DNA from: Escherichia coli
GTDB lineage: Bacteria; Pseudomonadota; Gammaproteobacteria; Enterobacterales; Enterobacteriaceae
Strand: one strand, 5' to 3'
DNA: 2,113 nucleotides
Assembly (NCBI RefSeq): GCF_013315695.1
Contig: NZ_CP054361.1
The notes under the pieces were generated by a model. The model made no database searches and was not told where the DNA came from. It saw nothing but the letters and a program-made list of their open reading frames with translations. A program made the position numbers and the translations under genes. Shown piece by piece: positions 1-2,113 of the stretch (positions within the stretch are counted from its first letter, which is position 1; each line of letters starts with the position of its first letter).

Positions 1-82
1 GGTTTTGAGGATGAATTAATTTTATATATTCAGAAAACAAACGAGAGGGTAAAAACTCTTTTTGTGAAAATAGATTTAAACG

Positions 83-90
83 GTATCAAG
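83..90 (-). other. Candidate double-strand-origin nick motif CTTGATAC (minus strand), pC194/pUB110/phiX174-type
   Basis: Plus-strand GTATCAAG at 83-90 gives CTTGATAC on the minus strand (context CCAAACTTGATACCG). As I recall, CTTGATA is the conserved nick core of this Rep family. A 6-bp-stem hairpin (TAAGAA-CGCA-TTCTTA, 101-116) is adjacent. The motif is absent from the plus strand, and an 8-mer has a non-trivial chance occurrence in about 4.2 kb of two-strand sequence. Confidence 0.3.
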
Positions 91-140
91 TTTGGATTTT
101 TAAGAACGCATTCTTAGTTCTGGAAAAGAGCCAGCGGCAG

Positions 141-150
141 GCTGAGGTGA
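141..150 (-). repeat. Inverted dispersed copy of the repeat core (reads TCACCTCAGC on the minus strand)
   Basis: Plus-strand GCTGAGGTGA at 141-150 is the reverse complement of TCACCTCAGC, which contains the CCTCAGC core of the tandem unit and is identical to the plus-strand 10-mer at 890-899. Confidence 0.5.
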
Positions 151-165
151 TAGGTACGAGATTGC

Positions 166-294
166 ATGCAATCTCTAGTGCTCTGTCTATCCTGCATTAT
201 CCTCAGCATTATCCTCAGCATTATCCTCAGCATTATCCTCAGCCTTGCCAACTCGACACCAATGCAGGATAGACAATCCGATGTCAAATGTTAA
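166..294 (+). CDS. Hypothetical 42-aa hydrophobic peptide reading through the tandem repeat (MQSLVLCLSCIILSIILSIILSIILSLANSTPMQDRQSDVKC); speculative
   Basis: ATG at 166 follows an in-frame TAG at 151-153; stop TAA at 292-294. The 12-bp repeat is in frame and encodes IILS x4, giving a roughly 25-residue hydrophobic segment followed by a charged tail. Only a weak SD (GAG at 158-160). All three frames through the repeat are open, so this may be an artefact. Confidence 0.15.
   Translation: MQSLVLCLSCIILSIILSIILSIILSLANSTPMQDRQSDVKC
195..242. repeat. Tandem direct repeat, 4 perfect copies of 12-bp unit CATTATCCTCAG
   Basis: Identical units at 195-206, 207-218, 219-230 and 231-242. A degenerate partial copy (TATCCTG) lies at 188-194 and the array decays into CCTTGCC at 243. 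Confidence 0.95.
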
Positions 295-480
295 CACTCT
301 GCGAGTGGTACATTTTCCCCGGATTATCGTCCTGAGCCTGCCGCTGGCTCTCTTTCTACCGCCTCGCTTTGCTCGTTGCTCAACGCCTCACAGACACGGA
401 TTAAAATCCGCATCCGTTCACCGTTTTTTAAAGTCCGTTAAAAGCATGATGCCATCTCCGAGAGTTAATCTCGTCAAATG

Positions 481-517
481 CTAAATCGTGGGGGTCCCCT
501 TTGGGGTTCCGATTTAG
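481..517. repeat. 8-bp perfect inverted repeat (CTAAATCG / CGATTTAG) enclosing a G/C-tract core TGGGGGTCCCCTTTGGGGTTC
   Basis: 481-488 is the reverse complement of 510-517. The enclosed CCCC(496-499)-TTT-GGGG(503-506) can form a nested mini-hairpin. Confidence 0.85.
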
Positions 518-553
518 TGATTGACGACACCACCGATTAAAAAACTTATGCGG

Positions 554-586
554 GGTGGATGGTTTCACGAAGTGAGGCCATCCACC
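554..586. repeat. 9-bp perfect inverted repeat (GGTGGATGG / CCATCCACC) with 15-nt loop
   Basis: 554-562 is the reverse complement of 578-586. Confidence 0.85.
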
Positions 587-593
587 TGTAAGA

Positions 594-620
594 CAGGGTT
601 TTGTTTTTATTCCCTGTTTT
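594..620 (+). terminator. Weak hairpin plus T-run (CAGGG-N13-CCCTG-TTTT); possible intrinsic terminator or third hairpin of a structured origin
   Basis: 5-bp stem 594-598 / 612-616 with a T-rich 13-nt loop, followed by TTTT at 617-620. The short stem and long loop make this weak. Confidence 0.2.
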
Positions 621-801
621 GGTGATCGGGTGTGTGGAAAAGGTTGGGGTAAGCCGTTCGGGGGTGCTTGTTTTGGGGGGTTAAAATTGTGGTTATTTTT
701 TGCGCAATTCTCGCGCGTGATCCTTGTATTTATACTTAAGGGATAAATGGCGGATATGAAATAGTGGTTTAGCCCAGTAATGACGAGGCTTTGAGTGGGT
801 T

Positions 802-830
802 TTGACAGGTCAAAGAAAATGGAGCAGAAT
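802..830 (+). promoter_or_regulatory. Candidate sigma70-type promoter: TTGACA (802-807) - 17 bp - CAGAAT (825-830)
   Basis: Perfect -35 hexamer embedded in the palindrome TTTGACAGGTCAAA (801-814). The -10 match is only 4/6 but keeps the conserved A2 and T6. It would place the 850-877 hairpin in the rep leader. By-eye prediction only. Confidence 0.2.
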
Positions 831-849
831 TGAGGCGTTTTTAATCGGC

Positions 850-877
850 GTTGGGGAGTGCGTCAACACTCCCCAAC
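850..877. repeat. 11-bp perfect inverted repeat (GTTGGGGAGTG / CACTCCCCAAC) with 6-nt loop CGTCAA; candidate origin or operator hairpin
   Basis: 850-860 is the exact reverse complement of 867-877. The stem is GC-rich and lies about 120 bp upstream of the rep start. No T-run follows it on either strand, so it is not a typical intrinsic terminator. Confidence 0.85.
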
Positions 878-886
878 ATTTCGAAT

Positions 887-917
887 GTGTCACCTCAGCG
901 GCAAACTCTGGTGACAT
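887..917. repeat. 7-bp inverted repeat (TGTCACC 888-894 / GGTGACA 910-916) carrying a CCTCAGC core copy in its left arm and spacer
   Basis: Arms are exact reverse complements, separated by 15 nt. TCACCTCAGC at 890-899 matches the reverse complement of 141-150 and shares CCTCAGC with the tandem array. Confidence 0.6.
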
Positions 918-982
918 GTACTGGCTCGCAATGCACAGGTACGTGATGAATATACCACATCAAATCACAGCCTGCCCAGATC

Positions 983-986
983 GGAG
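983..986 (+). promoter_or_regulatory. Shine-Dalgarno sequence (GGAG) for rep
   Basis: GGAG at 983-986 with an 8-nt spacer (987-994) before the rep ATG at 995. Confidence 0.6.
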
Positions 987-994
987 CAGGCTTA

Positions 995-1960
995 ATGTCA
1001 GAAGATAAATTCCTTTCGGACTACAGCCCCCGTGATGCAGTTTGGGATACCCAGCGCACGCTTACCGATTCTGTCGGGGGTATCTACCAGACTGCTGCTG
1101 AATTCGAGCGCTATGCACTCCGTATGGCCTCCTGTAGCGGTTTGTTACGTTTTGGTTGGTCTACCATCATGGAAACCGGAGAAACGCGCCTACGGCTTCG
1201 TAGTGCGCAATTTTGCCGTGTCCGTCATTGCCCTGTCTGCCAGTGGAGAAGAACCCTCATGTGGCAAGCCCGTTTTTATCAGGCTCTACCGAAAATCGTT
1301 GTGGATTACCCGTCTTCCCGATGGTTGTTTCTGACGTTAACTGTCAGGAACTGCGAGATAGGTGAACTTGGAACAGTCCTTACAGCAATGAATGCGGCGT
1401 TTAAGCGAATGGAAAAGCGAAAGGAGCTATCACCTGTTCAGGGGTGGATCAGGGCTACGGAGGTGACGCGAGGTAAGGATGGCAGCGCACATCCGCATTT
1501 TCACTGTCTGCTGATGGTGCAACCTTCTTGGTTTAAAGGGAAGAACTACGTTAAGCACGAACGTTGGGTAGAACTCTGGCGCGATTGCTTGCGGGTGAAC
1601 TATGAGCCGAATATCGATATTCGGGCAGTAAAAACTAAGACAGGTGAGGTTGTGGCCAACGTTGCCGAGCAACTGCAAAGCGCGGTTGCTGAAACGCTGA
1701 AATACTCCGTTAAACCGGAAGATATGGCAAACGATCCTGAGTGGTTTCTTGAGCTGACGCGGCAGCTTCACAAGCGCCGTTTTATCTCGACCGGTGGGGC
1801 GCTAAAAAACGTCCTCCAGTTGGATCGAGAAACCAATGAGGATCTTGTCATTGCCGACGATGTAGGGGATGGCACTGATGACGGGAAGCGGACGGCGTTT
1901 GTCTGGGATTCAGGTAAACGGCGTTACAAACGCGCCCCTGAGAAGGATAAATCGGATTAA
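995..1960 (+). CDS. rep: Rolling-circle replication initiator protein, Rep_1 (pC194/pUB110) HUH endonuclease family, 321 aa
   Basis: ATG at 995 is the first start after an in-frame TGA at 944-946, with GGAG at 983-986 eight nt upstream. Translation shows CRVRHCPVC (aa 74-82, nt 1214-1240), FLTLT (aa 112-116, nt 1328-1342), HUH motif HPHFH (aa 166-170, nt 1490-1504), WVELWRD (aa 191-197) and ETLKYSVK with Glu233/Tyr237 (Tyr codon 1703-1705). Motif order and spacing match my recollection of pC194 RepA and pUB110 RepU (FLTLT, HPHFH, CPVC and KYSxK motifs). No search was run. Confidence 0.93.
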   Translation: MSEDKFLSDYSPRDAVWDTQRTLTDSVGGIYQTAAEFERYALRMASCSGLLRFGWSTIMETGETRLRLRSAQFCRVRHCPVCQWRRTLMWQARFYQALPKIVVDYPSSRWLFLTLTVRNCEIGELGTVLTAMNAAFKRMEKRKELSPVQGWIRATEVTRGKDGSAHPHFHCLLMVQPSWFKGKNYVKHERWVELWRDCLRVNYEPNIDIRAVKTKTGEVVANVAEQLQSAVAETLKYSVKPEDMANDPEWFLELTRQLHKRRFISTGGALKNVLQLDRETNEDLVIADDVGDGTDDGKRTAFVWDSGKRRYKRAPEKDKSD

Positions 1961-2113
1961 CGTATGAATATTAATATTGAATACCTGAATGGAAATAAGA
2001 CTATTGGTTTATTTTTTTTAAGAAGTGAAGCGGTGATTCCTGACAGGTTTAAAAACCTTATTTTGCTTATTGATGGATTAAGTTTTGGCACATTTGGTTT
2101 TCATCCGCACGAA

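What the first reader, a model, noticed from the sequence alone, without database searches (positions are those of the whole stretch)
481..620. Cluster of three consecutive hairpins in a non-coding segment: candidate single-strand origin or structured RNA
Perfect inverted repeats at 481-517 (8-bp arms around a nested CCCC-TTT-GGGG mini-hairpin) and 554-586 (9-bp arms), plus a weaker one at 594-616 followed by TTTT, fill about 140 bp with no credible ORF. Lagging-strand origins of RCR replicons, and the complementary-strand origins of E. coli ssDNA phages, are defined by exactly such multi-hairpin ssDNA structures recognised by RNA polymerase or primase. Alternatively the region could encode a small regulatory RNA ending at the T-run near 617-620.
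Basis: inference. Interest (0 to 1): 0.45.

Follow-up and report, generated by a model that had tools for sequence, protein, structure and literature searches.

The report
Phage-type single-strand origin of plasmid pKYM
The hairpin cluster is the lagging-strand (single-strand) replication origin of a common small E. coli/Shigella rolling-circle plasmid, and it is a clear relative of the well-studied minus-strand origin of M13/f1/IKe phages, so it is real but ordinary.

Summary
The window is a complete 2113-bp variant of the Shigella sonnei rolling-circle plasmid pKYM (Rep_1 initiator at 995-1960). The first two hairpins are real, stable and conserved. They are hairpin B (471-527) and hairpin C (554-586). 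They align base for base with the minus-strand origin of filamentous phages: f1/M13/fd 5624-5756, and IKe 6333-6438, which GenBank annotates as "minus-strand origin stem loop".

Across 35 distinct homologues, 95.7% of the cells in the proposed pairs are base-paired. Twelve pairs show compensatory double changes. The element is always on the phage coding (viral) strand. It is always co-oriented with rep in Rep_1 plasmids. It sits just 5' of an invariant block (720-746) that I take to be the double-strand-origin nick region, which is the f1 layout.

The third hairpin (593-617) is weak and not conserved. That stretch corresponds to the T-rich template on which f1's primer RNA is made. There is no support for a small RNA.

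Most likely mechanism: host sigma-70 RNA polymerase primes complementary-strand synthesis on the displaced + strand. DnaG primase priming at CTG 586-588 is the main rival.

Novelty is low. From memory, the pKYM single-strand origin was mapped in 1995.

The parts
471..527 (+). Hairpin B of the single-strand origin. Lower stem 471-477/521-527, 3x3 internal loop, upper stem 481-488/510-517. The apical part has unpaired TGGGGGT, the mini-hairpin 496-499/503-506, and unpaired TTC.
   Evidence: It aligns with f1 5624-5685 and with the IKe 6333-6385 feature annotated 'minus-strand origin stem loop'. The stems are 97-100% paired across 35 homologues, with 4 pairs changed on both sides. Insertions in the ColpVC-type plasmids lengthen the mini-hairpin while keeping it paired. 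Sequence is near invariant (GTCAA, AATCG, GGG, CC, GGGTTCCGATT, GTG, TT.AC), which suggests protein recognition.
528..553 (+). Single-stranded, A-rich linker between the hairpins.
   Evidence: Its length (about 22-29 nt) and A-rich character are kept across the family, while its sequence varies.
554..586 (+). Hairpin C of the single-strand origin. 15 pairs, of which 9 are perfect; GAA loop within the conserved TCACGNAGT motif.
   Evidence: It aligns with f1 5705-5735 and with the IKe 6410-6438 feature annotated 'minus-strand origin stem loop'. Seven of its 9 lower pairs show compensatory double changes. DNA fold z -5.1.
586..588 (+). CTG at the 3' foot of hairpin C.
   Evidence: It is conserved in most family members. 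In f1 the G of this CTG is nt 5737, which is where, from memory, the 20-nt primer ends. In G4 and in the large-plasmid variants, the T of a CTG is the primase start.
589..611 (+). AGAC-G-T-rich single-stranded segment, the predicted template for the primer RNA. The start is predicted near T607 by spacing analogy with f1 T5756.
   Evidence: The 16 nt starting at C586 match f1 at 11 of 16 positions and G4 at 6 of 16. The similarity to IKe and PEar phages, and to the sso regions of other small Rep_1 plasmids, runs to about 607-608. The start position itself is inference.
593..617 (+). Third, weak hairpin (6 bp, 13-nt loop). Probably incidental.
   Evidence: -4.6 kcal/mol, z -2.5, 3 of 200 shuffles as good. 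It arises from an 11-nt insertion relative to IKe and f1 and is absent in the 88%-identical Enterobacter plasmid and in Kosakonia.
720..746 (+). Invariant block ATCCTTGTATTTATACTTAAGGGATAA, the presumed nick region of the double-strand origin. The nick is predicted within about 724-735 on the + strand.
   Evidence: All or most of the block (18-27 nt) is identical in plasmids whose Rep proteins are only 46-72% identical. It always lies between the sso and rep, on the rep strand. The nicked strand is inferred from pC194 and pUB110, where CTTGATA lies upstream of rep and is co-oriented with it.
995..1960 (+). rep (RepK), the rolling-circle initiator that generates the single-stranded + strand.
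   Evidence: Pfam Rep_1 (PF01446), E 1.3e-88. 99-100% identical to pKYM Rep.

Best explanation
Window 471-611 (+ strand) is the single-strand origin (sso, or minus origin) of a pKYM-type rolling-circle plasmid. It belongs to the same sequence family as the minus-strand origin of the filamentous phages f1/M13/fd and IKe.

Proposed mechanism:
1. RepK (995-1960) nicks the + strand at the double-strand origin (conserved block 720-746).
2. Leading-strand synthesis displaces the old + strand as a circle. The sso lies just 5' of the nick, so it is the last part to become single-stranded.
3. SSB coats the circle, except for hairpins B (471-527) and C (554-586).
4. Host sigma-70 RNA polymerase holoenzyme binds the two hairpins. 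It makes a short primer RNA of about 20 nt on the T-rich single-stranded stretch 3' of hairpin C (about 589-611), reading toward the foot of hairpin C.
5. DNA polymerase extends the primer around the circle. The primer is removed and the strand is ligated.

Shown here: homology, conserved structure, strand and position.

Inferred: which strand RepK nicks, the use of RNA polymerase rather than primase, and the exact primer start.
For: Identity of the replicon. The window is 100% identical to more than 200 small plasmids of 2.09-2.13 kb. Over 621-994 it is 100% identical to Shigella sonnei pKYM, NC_001378. Its Rep is Pfam Rep_1, E 1e-88.

Homology.
- Window 471-608 matches the viral strand of Erwinia PEar inoviruses (83%, E 9e-26), IKe 6334-6461 (77%, E 5e-16) and f1/M13/fd 5625-5749 (76%, E 4e-11).
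- The IKe GenBank record annotates exactly these two hairpins as minus-strand origin stem-loops.
- The (-) strand origin of M13 lies just upstream of the (+) strand nick at 5780/5781 (PMC5405960; coordinates checked).

Structure. On 35 distinct homologues, 95.7% of cells are paired, 12 pairs have changes on both sides (67 cells), and the covariation score is 0.226 against 0.087 for shuffles (0 of 500 reach it). Slid-partner controls give 45% paired or less.

Strand.
- G.T wobbles outnumber A.C mismatches 35 to 12.
- The element is on the coding (viral) strand in all phage contigs.
- It is co-oriented with rep in all 18 Rep_1 loci, with Rep identity from 46% to 100%.
- The family profile scores the window's + strand at 136.7 bits and its - strand at 18.6 bits.

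Position. An invariant block at 720-746 lies between the sso and rep in all these plasmids. In pC194 and pUB110 the nicked motif is upstream of rep and co-oriented with it.

Priming type. The 3' flank is f1-like (11 of 16) and not G4-like (6 of 16). All phage members and nearly all small Rep_1 plasmid members share the T-run flank.

Established knowledge (my memory, not a tool result). Ff minus-strand synthesis is rifampicin-sensitive. It is primed by sigma-70 holoenzyme on SSB-coated DNA, starting at f1 nt 5756 (Geider 1978; Kaguni and Kornberg 1982; Higashitani 1996, 1997; Zenkin 2006). The role of sigma-70 holoenzyme is also stated in PMC3411601.
Against: - No experiment here shows single-stranded intermediates, the nick strand, or the priming enzyme.
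- The dso nick strand is inferred. Local alignment of the pC194 and pUB110 nick regions to the window is not above chance on either strand.
- A perfect pC194-type heptamer, CTTGATA, lies on the - strand at 84-90. About 0.26 such matches are expected by chance, and this stretch found no match outside pKYM-type plasmids in the search of window 1-470.
- A CTG sits at the foot of hairpin C, as in primase sites. Close relatives of the module in large plasmids carry a G4-type primase start. The priming enzyme therefore cannot be read from sequence alone.
- The window has an 11-nt insertion in the presumed primer-template segment relative to f1 and IKe.
Confidence: 0.75

Rival explanations
1. It is still a single-strand origin on the + strand, but it is primed by DnaG primase alone (a G4-type 'G site'). 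Primase would start opposite the T of CTG 586-588 and copy the 3' arm of hairpin C, as it copies stem-loop I in phage G4.
For: CTG lies immediately 3' of hairpin C in the window and in most family members. In large IncFII-like and IncI-gamma/K plasmids the same two hairpins are followed by CTGCAAAGCCAAAAGG. That sequence is 16 of 16 identical to G4 at its annotated primer start. The module is therefore compatible with primase sites.
Against: The window's flank matches G4 at only 6 of 16 positions, against 11 of 16 for f1. f1 itself has the same CTG yet is primed by RNA polymerase 20 nt further 3' (memory; coordinates). IKe, whose hairpins are annotated as the minus-strand origin, has TTG rather than CTG.
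Confidence: 0.15
2. The region encodes a small structured RNA, or acts as a transcription terminator in the double-stranded plasmid.
For: The covarying helices could in principle be RNA helices. A 5-bp stem at 585-597 followed by GTTTTGTTTT passes a loose terminator scan. The IKe record labels its hairpins 'pot. transcription termination'.
Against: - No Rfam family reaches its threshold. The best match is a microRNA model at 24 bits against a gathering score of 90.
- No promoter-like site lies on the + strand between 1 and 800.
- In the phages, the homologous element functions as DNA.
- The fixed orientation relative to rep and the position next to the nick block are what an sso predicts.
Confidence: 0.03
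3. It is a phage-derived relic or a hitch-hiking signal, for example part of a packaging or mobilisation module that lets the plasmid ride in filamentous-phage particles, rather than the plasmid's own lagging-strand origin.
For: The layout mirrors the Ff intergenic region: a large upstream hairpin region (122-356, z -8.4), then hairpins B and C, then the nick region. The element is shared between inoviruses and plasmids.
Against: The upstream structured region has no similarity to any phage. The sso module is kept in at least 12 distinct Rep_1 plasmids with otherwise unalignable non-coding DNA, which argues for a function in the plasmid's own replication. A rolling-circle plasmid needs an sso, and no other candidate is evident.
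Confidence: 0.05

Closest known systems
Minus-strand (complementary-strand) origin of Ff phages f1/M13/fd, hairpins [B] and [C], f1 nt about 5624-5756
   Same: - Two adjacent hairpins with alignable sequence, 76% identity over 131 nt.
- The same conserved loop and bulge motifs.
- CTG at the foot of hairpin C, followed by AGAC-G and a T-run.
- On the strand that is single-stranded, immediately 5' of the plus-strand nick.
   Different: - The host replicon is a Rep_1 plasmid, not an inovirus.
- The −35-like hexamer in the 3' arm of hairpin B is a fully paired TTGACG (521-526). In f1 it is TTTACG with a C.T mismatch.
- Hairpin C has a perfect 9-bp stem, where f1 has a T.G pair.
- An 11-nt insertion in the primer-template segment creates a weak third hairpin.
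- The distance to the nick region is about 110-250 nt, against about 25 nt in f1.
Minus-strand origin of phage IKe (X02139, features at 6333-6385 and 6410-6438) and of Erwinia PEar inoviruses
   Same: These are the closest phage relatives: 77% and 83% identity over 137 nt. They also share TTTTGGTGATCG 3' of the T-run with the window.
   Different: IKe has TTG instead of CTG at the foot of hairpin C and lacks 3 nt in the apical part of hairpin B. PEar keeps both CTG and the apical GGGTTC. Both lack the 11-nt insertion.
Primase-dependent G-type priming signals (phage G4 oric; the module found in IncFII-like and IncI large plasmids)
   Same: A stable stem-loop followed directly by 5'-CTG-3'. The large-plasmid versions share hairpins B and C with the window at 76-80% identity.
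   Different: The window lacks the G4-type start flank CTGCAAAGCCAAAAGG (6 of 16). G4's own three stem-loops are not alignable with hairpins B and C. R100, the classical G-site plasmid, has no homologue of this module in the half that contains repA.
ssoA/ssoU/ssoT/ssoW of Gram-positive rolling-circle plasmids
   Same: Same job and logic: an orientation-specific, folded ssDNA signal upstream of the dso, with priming by host RNA polymerase (function as summarised in PMC5714925).
   Different: No sequence relationship. The ssoA CS-6 motif TAGCGW is absent from the whole window.
Frpo / ssi single-stranded promoters of conjugative-plasmid leading regions
   Same: An ssDNA stem-loop that is recognised by host RNA polymerase and yields primer RNA (PMC7690428).
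   Different: Frpo is one long stem-loop of about 328 nt with −35 and −10 boxes in the stem. The family profile finds nothing in R100 45,000-94,281, which includes the psiB part of the leading region.

Membership tests
Filamentous-phage (Ff/IKe) type minus-strand origin | Two adjacent hairpins ([B] and [C]) homologous in sequence to those of f1 and IKe | tested here: met
   BLAST E 9e-26 (PEar), 5e-16 (IKe) and 4e-11 (f1) over both hairpins. Alignments. The IKe features annotated as minus-strand origin stem-loops coincide with the aligned parts.
Filamentous-phage (Ff/IKe) type minus-strand origin | Hairpins maintained by selection (compensatory substitutions) | tested here: met
   95.7% of cells paired, 12 pairs with double changes, 0 of 500 shuffles reach the observed values, slid controls 45% or less.
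Filamentous-phage (Ff/IKe) type minus-strand origin | Lies, in the active orientation, on the strand that exists as ssDNA | tested here: met
   This test is indirect.
- On the coding/viral strand in all phage contigs.
- Co-oriented with rep in 18 of 18 Rep_1 loci.
- In pC194 and pUB110 the nicked strand is the rep-sense strand.
- G.T exceeds A.C, 35 to 12.
The nicked strand of this plasmid itself was not determined.
Filamentous-phage (Ff/IKe) type minus-strand origin | Placed just 5' of the plus-strand nick, so that it is displaced last | tested here: met
   The sso ends at about 611. The invariant presumed nick block is at 720-746, on the same strand and upstream of rep. In f1 the hairpins end at 5735 and the nick is at 5780/5781.
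Filamentous-phage (Ff/IKe) type minus-strand origin | Rifampicin-sensitive priming by sigma-70 RNA polymerase holoenzyme on SSB-coated DNA, giving a primer of about 20 nt that starts 3' of hairpin C | not testable with these tools
   There is only a sequence proxy: the f1-like AGAC-G-T-run flank (11 of 16 against f1, 6 of 16 against G4).
G4-type primase-dependent priming site | 5'-CTG-3' directly 3' of a stable stem-loop | tested here: met
   CTG at 586-588, at the foot of hairpin C.
G4-type primase-dependent priming site | G4-like start-region sequence (CTGCAAAGCCAAAAGG) | tested here: not met
   6 of 16 identity in the window, against 14-16 of 16 in the best large-plasmid relatives L024, L026 and L043 (10-12 of 16 in L004, L025 and L075).
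G4-type primase-dependent priming site | Priming by DnaG and SSB alone, resistant to rifampicin | not testable with these tools
   Needs an in vitro or in vivo assay.
ssoA of Gram-positive RCR plasmids | CS-6 consensus (TAGCGT/A) in a terminal loop | tested here: not met
   TAGCGW has 0 matches on either strand of the window.
Frpo-type single-stranded DNA promoter | One long stem-loop (about 300 nt) carrying −35 and −10 boxes; sequence related to the leading-region copies in F and R100 | tested here: not met
   The architecture differs: two short hairpins. The family profile finds no hit at E of 1 or less in R100 45,000-94,281, which includes the psiB region.
Any curated RNA family (Rfam 15) | Score at or above the family's gathering threshold | tested here: not met
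   The best match is mir-5736 at 24.3 bits against a gathering score of 90.

The most novel reading that the evidence does not exclude
The B+C two-hairpin module may be one widespread, exchangeable priming cassette. It is shared by Ff/IKe-like inoviruses, by Rep_1 rolling-circle plasmids, and by hundreds of large IncF/IncI theta plasmids. On this reading, the choice of priming enzyme is set by the 3' flank: a T-run flank gives RNA polymerase priming, and the flank CTGCAAAGCCAAAAGG gives DnaG priming. The pKYM version has both a CTG at the foot of hairpin C and an f1-like flank. It might therefore be usable by either enzyme, which would make ss-to-ds conversion robust to rifampicin or to host differences.
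Probability: 0.15. Interest if true: 0.45.

Novelty: already known. Interest (0 to 1): 0.15.

Why it matters
This is the cis-acting signal that lets a very common cryptic plasmid finish each replication round. The region is present in 228 of 5426 complete E. coli genomes and in about 200 PLSDB records. It is unannotated in every record inspected.

Recognising it gives a ready annotation for the same module in more than 1000 plasmids. It also documents module sharing between inoviruses and plasmids.

It does not open a new question. The kind of element and its mechanism are textbook (Ff minus-strand origin), and pKYM is a studied plasmid. From memory, unverified here, its single-strand origin was mapped experimentally by Kodaira et al., Biochim Biophys Acta 1995, 1260:183.

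Tried and rejected
- Rfam, with permissive thresholds: nothing meaningful.
- Promoter/terminator scan: no + strand promoter upstream, and only a marginal 5-bp terminator-like stem.
- Literature: the pKYM papers (PNAS 1991), Higashitani 1997 and the del Solar and Khan reviews are not held. The open-access papers inspected that mention pKYM do not discuss its sso. Statements about earlier work on the pKYM sso therefore rest on my memory.
- pC194-type nick heptamer: the only CTTGATA is on the - strand at 84-90. I rejected it as the dso because this stretch found no match outside pKYM-type plasmids in the search of window 1-470, and a single match is near the chance expectation. In contrast, 720-746 is invariant across divergent Rep_1 plasmids.
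- Direct similarity of the window to the pC194 and pUB110 nick regions: not above the shuffled-query null on either strand. The MAFFT alignment is only suggestive.
- Is the large-plasmid homologue the classical R100 G site? No. R100 45,000-94,281, which includes repA and its downstream region, has no homologue.
- ssoA CS-6 motif: absent.
- Phage similarity of the upstream structured region 100-470: none.
- pIGRK, whose ssi deletion phenotype is published, could not be fetched to test whether it belongs to this family.

Full report
**What the window is.** The 2113 bases are a complete small plasmid.
- It is 100% identical to more than 200 plasmids of 2089-2125 bp from E. coli, Shigella, Klebsiella and Salmonella.
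- Over 621-994 it is 100% identical to Shigella sonnei pKYM, NC_001378. Window coordinate = pKYM coordinate + 296.
- The only long ORF (995-1960, + strand) is a Rep_1 rolling-circle initiator (PF01446, E 1.3e-88).
- PLSDB types the replicon as Col(BS512).
- pKYM is described in the literature as a rolling-circle plasmid with a 173-bp plus origin that needs HU and UvrD (PMC4439123).

**The observation.** All three inverted repeats are present at the stated coordinates.
Below the 8-bp stem 481-488/510-517 and a 3x3 internal loop there is a 7-bp stem, 471-477/521-527.
- Hairpin 2 extends from 9 perfect pairs to 15 pairs (554-568/572-586).
- As single-stranded DNA, the + strand 465-625 folds at -34.7 kcal/mol, z -6.7 against shuffles.
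- Hairpins 1 and 2 are each individually better than all 200 shuffles.
- Hairpin 3 (593-598/612-617) is marginal: -4.6 kcal/mol, with 3 of 200 shuffles as good.

**What it is.** A sensitive search of phage genomes shows that window 471-608 matches the viral strand of three groups of filamentous phages:

| Phage | Identity | E-value | Region |
|---|---|---|---|
| Erwinia PEar inoviruses | 83% | 9e-26 | – |
| IKe | 77% | 5e-16 | 6334-6461 |
| f1/M13/fd | 76% | 4e-11 | 5625-5749 |

- The IKe GenBank record annotates two "minus-strand origin stem loop" features at 6333-6385 and 6410-6438. These are exactly the segments that align with the window's hairpins 1 and 2.
- In f1 the aligned segment lies directly upstream of the plus-strand nick at 5780/5781. 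That is where the (-) strand origin is located (PMC5405960).
- I therefore call the window's hairpins B (471-527) and C (554-586), after the f1 nomenclature.

**The third hairpin.** It arises from an 11-nt insertion relative to IKe and f1.
- It is missing in the 88%-identical Enterobacter plasmid and in a Kosakonia relative. That relative nevertheless shares the T-rich sequence GGTTTTGYTTTTATTC.
- This stretch corresponds to the single-stranded segment 3' of hairpin C. From memory, this is where the f1 primer RNA is templated, from T5756 down to G5737, the G of the CTG at the foot of hairpin C. The coordinates are consistent.

**Conservation and structure.** I collected homologues from phage records, IMG/VR contigs, PLSDB plasmids and a scan of genome contigs. 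I aligned 35 distinct sequences (alignment A2).
- For a 29-pair structure covering both hairpins, 95.7% of cells are standard pairs.
- Twelve pairs carry changes on both sides (67 cells).
- The covariation score is 0.226 against 0.087 for shuffles. No shuffle of 500 reaches the observed values, and sliding the partners drops pairing to 45% or less.
- Hairpin C varies freely in sequence but keeps its stem: 7 of 9 lower pairs covary.
- Hairpin B is nearly invariant in sequence, including unpaired positions (TGGGG 5' of the mini-hairpin, TTC 3' of it, GTG in the internal loop, and TTGAC in the 3' arm). This is what a protein-recognised element would look like.
- In ColpVC-type plasmids, insertions lengthen the apical mini-hairpin while keeping it paired.

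**Which strand.** Inverted repeats fold on either strand, so I looked for asymmetry.
- G.T wobble cells outnumber A.C cells 35 to 12, and most A.C cells come from three sequences that are misaligned in hairpin C.
- In the phage contigs, the element is on the strand that carries the genes, which is the packaged viral strand.
- In all 18 loci that encode a Rep_1 protein (46-100% identical to the window's Rep), the element is co-oriented with rep.
- A profile of the family scores the window's + strand at 136.7 bits and its - strand at 18.6 bits.

**Relation to the double-strand origin.**
- Between the sso and rep, all or most of the 27-nt block ATCCTTGTATTTATACTTAAGGGATAA (window 720-746; 18-27 nt shared) is identical in plasmids whose Rep proteins are only 46-72% identical and whose other non-coding DNA does not align. 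Such invariance is typical of the nick region of a rolling-circle dso.
- In the family prototypes pC194 and pUB110, the nicked motif CTTGATA lies upstream of rep and is co-oriented with it.
- By analogy, the window's + strand is nicked, within about 724-735, and is displaced. The order on the displaced strand is then sso - nick - rep, the same as hairpins B and C followed by the nick in f1.

Two caveats apply.
- The similarity of the block to the Gram-positive nick regions is only suggestive and is not above chance in a local-alignment test.
- One exact CTTGATA lies on the - strand at 84-90. I regard it as chance. About 0.26 such matches are expected, it lies inside an annotated hypothetical ORF, and this stretch found no match outside pKYM-type plasmids in the search of window 1-470.

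**Mechanism.** The best-supported model is the Ff one.
1. After RepK-driven leading-strand synthesis releases the + strand circle, SSB covers it except for hairpins B and C.
2. Sigma-70 RNA polymerase holoenzyme binds there. It makes a short primer on the T-rich single-stranded stretch 3' of hairpin C, reading toward the hairpin foot.
3. DNA polymerase then completes the complementary strand.

The role of sigma-70 holoenzyme in Ff minus-strand priming is stated in PMC3411601. The details (primer start at 5756, length about 20 nt, need for SSB, rifampicin sensitivity) are from my memory of Geider, Kornberg, Higashitani/Horiuchi and Zenkin. By equal spacing from the CTG, the window's start would be near T607. 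That would give a primer 5'-AAAACAAAACCCUGUCUUAC. This is inference only.

**The main rival: primase.** The same B+C module occurs in about 400 large conjugative plasmids.
- In IncFII-like and IncI-gamma/K replicons it lies about 600 bp downstream of repA. It is on the strand that would template synthesis away from the origin.
- There its 3' flank is CTGCAAAGCCAAAAGG, identical at 16 of 16 positions to phage G4 at its annotated primer start.
- Scoring the 16 nt that start at the last C of hairpin C separates the family cleanly:

| Members | Identity to f1 flank | Identity to G4 flank |
|---|---|---|
| Named phages and small Rep_1 plasmids | 10-16 of 16 | low |
| Large theta plasmids with the G4-type flank (L004, L024, L025, L026, L043, L075) | low | 10-16 of 16 |
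| The window | 11 of 16 | 6 of 16 |

- This favours RNA polymerase, but sequence cannot settle the enzyme. I give the primase model 0.15.

**Other readings.** A small RNA or a terminator has no support: there is no Rfam match and no upstream promoter. A role as a phage packaging or hitch-hiking signal is not excluded but has no evidence. The structured region upstream (122-356, z -8.4) has no phage similarity.

**Comparison with known systems.** The element meets every sequence-testable criterion of the Ff/IKe minus-strand origin family. It is not an ssoA (no CS-6 motif). It is not Frpo-like (different architecture, and no hit in the R100 half that contains the psiB part of the leading region). 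It is not related to any Rfam family.

**Novelty and score.** The kind of element is textbook and the plasmid is a studied one. I recall, but could not retrieve, a 1995 paper that determined the pKYM single-strand origin experimentally (Kodaira, Oki, Taketo, Yasukawa, Masamune, BBA 1260:183). I therefore rate it as already known. The practical note is that it is unannotated in all records seen, although it is present in 228 of 5426 complete E. coli genomes. Interest is 0.15.

The one mildly interesting by-product is the apparent modularity of the cassette: the same hairpins with either an f1-type or a G4-type start flank, across phages, rolling-circle plasmids and theta plasmids.

Noticed in passing
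L026 5001-5150; L024 4001-4150; L025 5001-5150; L004 and L005 6001-6120: Large IncFII-like, IncI-gamma/K and IncFIA plasmids carry the same B+C hairpin module. In the IncFII-like and IncI-gamma/K loci it lies about 600 bp downstream of repA. In the IncFIA loci it lies beside a relE/parE toxin-antitoxin pair. The 3' flank in L026 (CTGCAAAGCCAAAAGG) is 16 of 16 identical to the phage G4 complementary-strand origin at its annotated primer start (15 of 16 in L024, 10-11 of 16 in L025 and L004, not G4-like in L005). This looks like a chimera of an Ff-type recognition structure and a G4-type primase start. R100 has no homologue in the repA-containing half examined (45,000-94,281).
   Followed up: partly
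window 122-356: There is a large nested inverted-repeat structure: 24-nt arms at 124-147/331-354 and perfect 15-nt arms at 184-198/261-275. It surrounds four tandem copies of the 12-bp unit GCATTATCCTCA. The ssDNA fold gives z -8.4. The repeat copy number explains the 2089/2101/2113/2125-bp size variants of the plasmid. Its function is unknown, and it has no phage similarity.
   Followed up: partly
window 260-296: A 37-nt stretch (AATGCAGGATAGACAATCCGATGTCAAATGTTAACAC) is 100% identical to a sequence found, often twice per record, in many plasmids of about 30-40 kb, and also in several 4.2-kb plasmids.
   Followed up: no
window 84-90 (- strand): There is an exact pC194/pUB110-type nick heptamer, CTTGATA, on the strand opposite rep. 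It lies inside the annotated hypothetical ORF 1964..117. This stretch found no match outside pKYM-type plasmids. It is probably chance, but it would matter if RepK nicked there.
   Followed up: partly
window 720-746: Most or all of the 27-nt block ATCCTTGTATTTATACTTAAGGGATAA (18-27 nt) is identical across Rep_1 plasmids whose Rep proteins are 46-72% identical. It is an imperfect palindrome (ATCCTT...AAGGGAT) with the CTTG/TATTTATAC core in the loop. It is the presumed dso nick site and is unannotated in the records inspected.
   Followed up: partly
L028 (pKYM NC_001378) 173-312 versus window 466-608: The original pKYM record lacks 3 nt inside hairpin B: two C's of the CCCC mini-hairpin arm, and A524. 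All the modern records examined carry these bases. The gaps are probably gel-compression errors from the original sequencing.
   Followed up: no
L040, L044, L047, L057, L064, L069, L074 and others; L058, L071: The genome-contig scan found exact f1-origin copies in assemblies of Nitrospira, Streptomyces, Paracoccus, Mycobacterium, Fructilactobacillus and others. These are most likely cloning-vector contamination. It also found pKYM-identical contigs in Streptococcus hillyeri and Streptantibioticus assemblies, which are likely contamination too.
   Followed up: no
window 585-597: A small 5-bp stem (CCTGT/ACAGG, loop AAG) overlaps the foot of hairpin C and is followed by GTTTTGTTTTT. A similar CCTG...CAGG plus T-run arrangement recurs in several small-plasmid relatives, but not in f1, IKe or PEar1. 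Its meaning is unclear.
   Followed up: no
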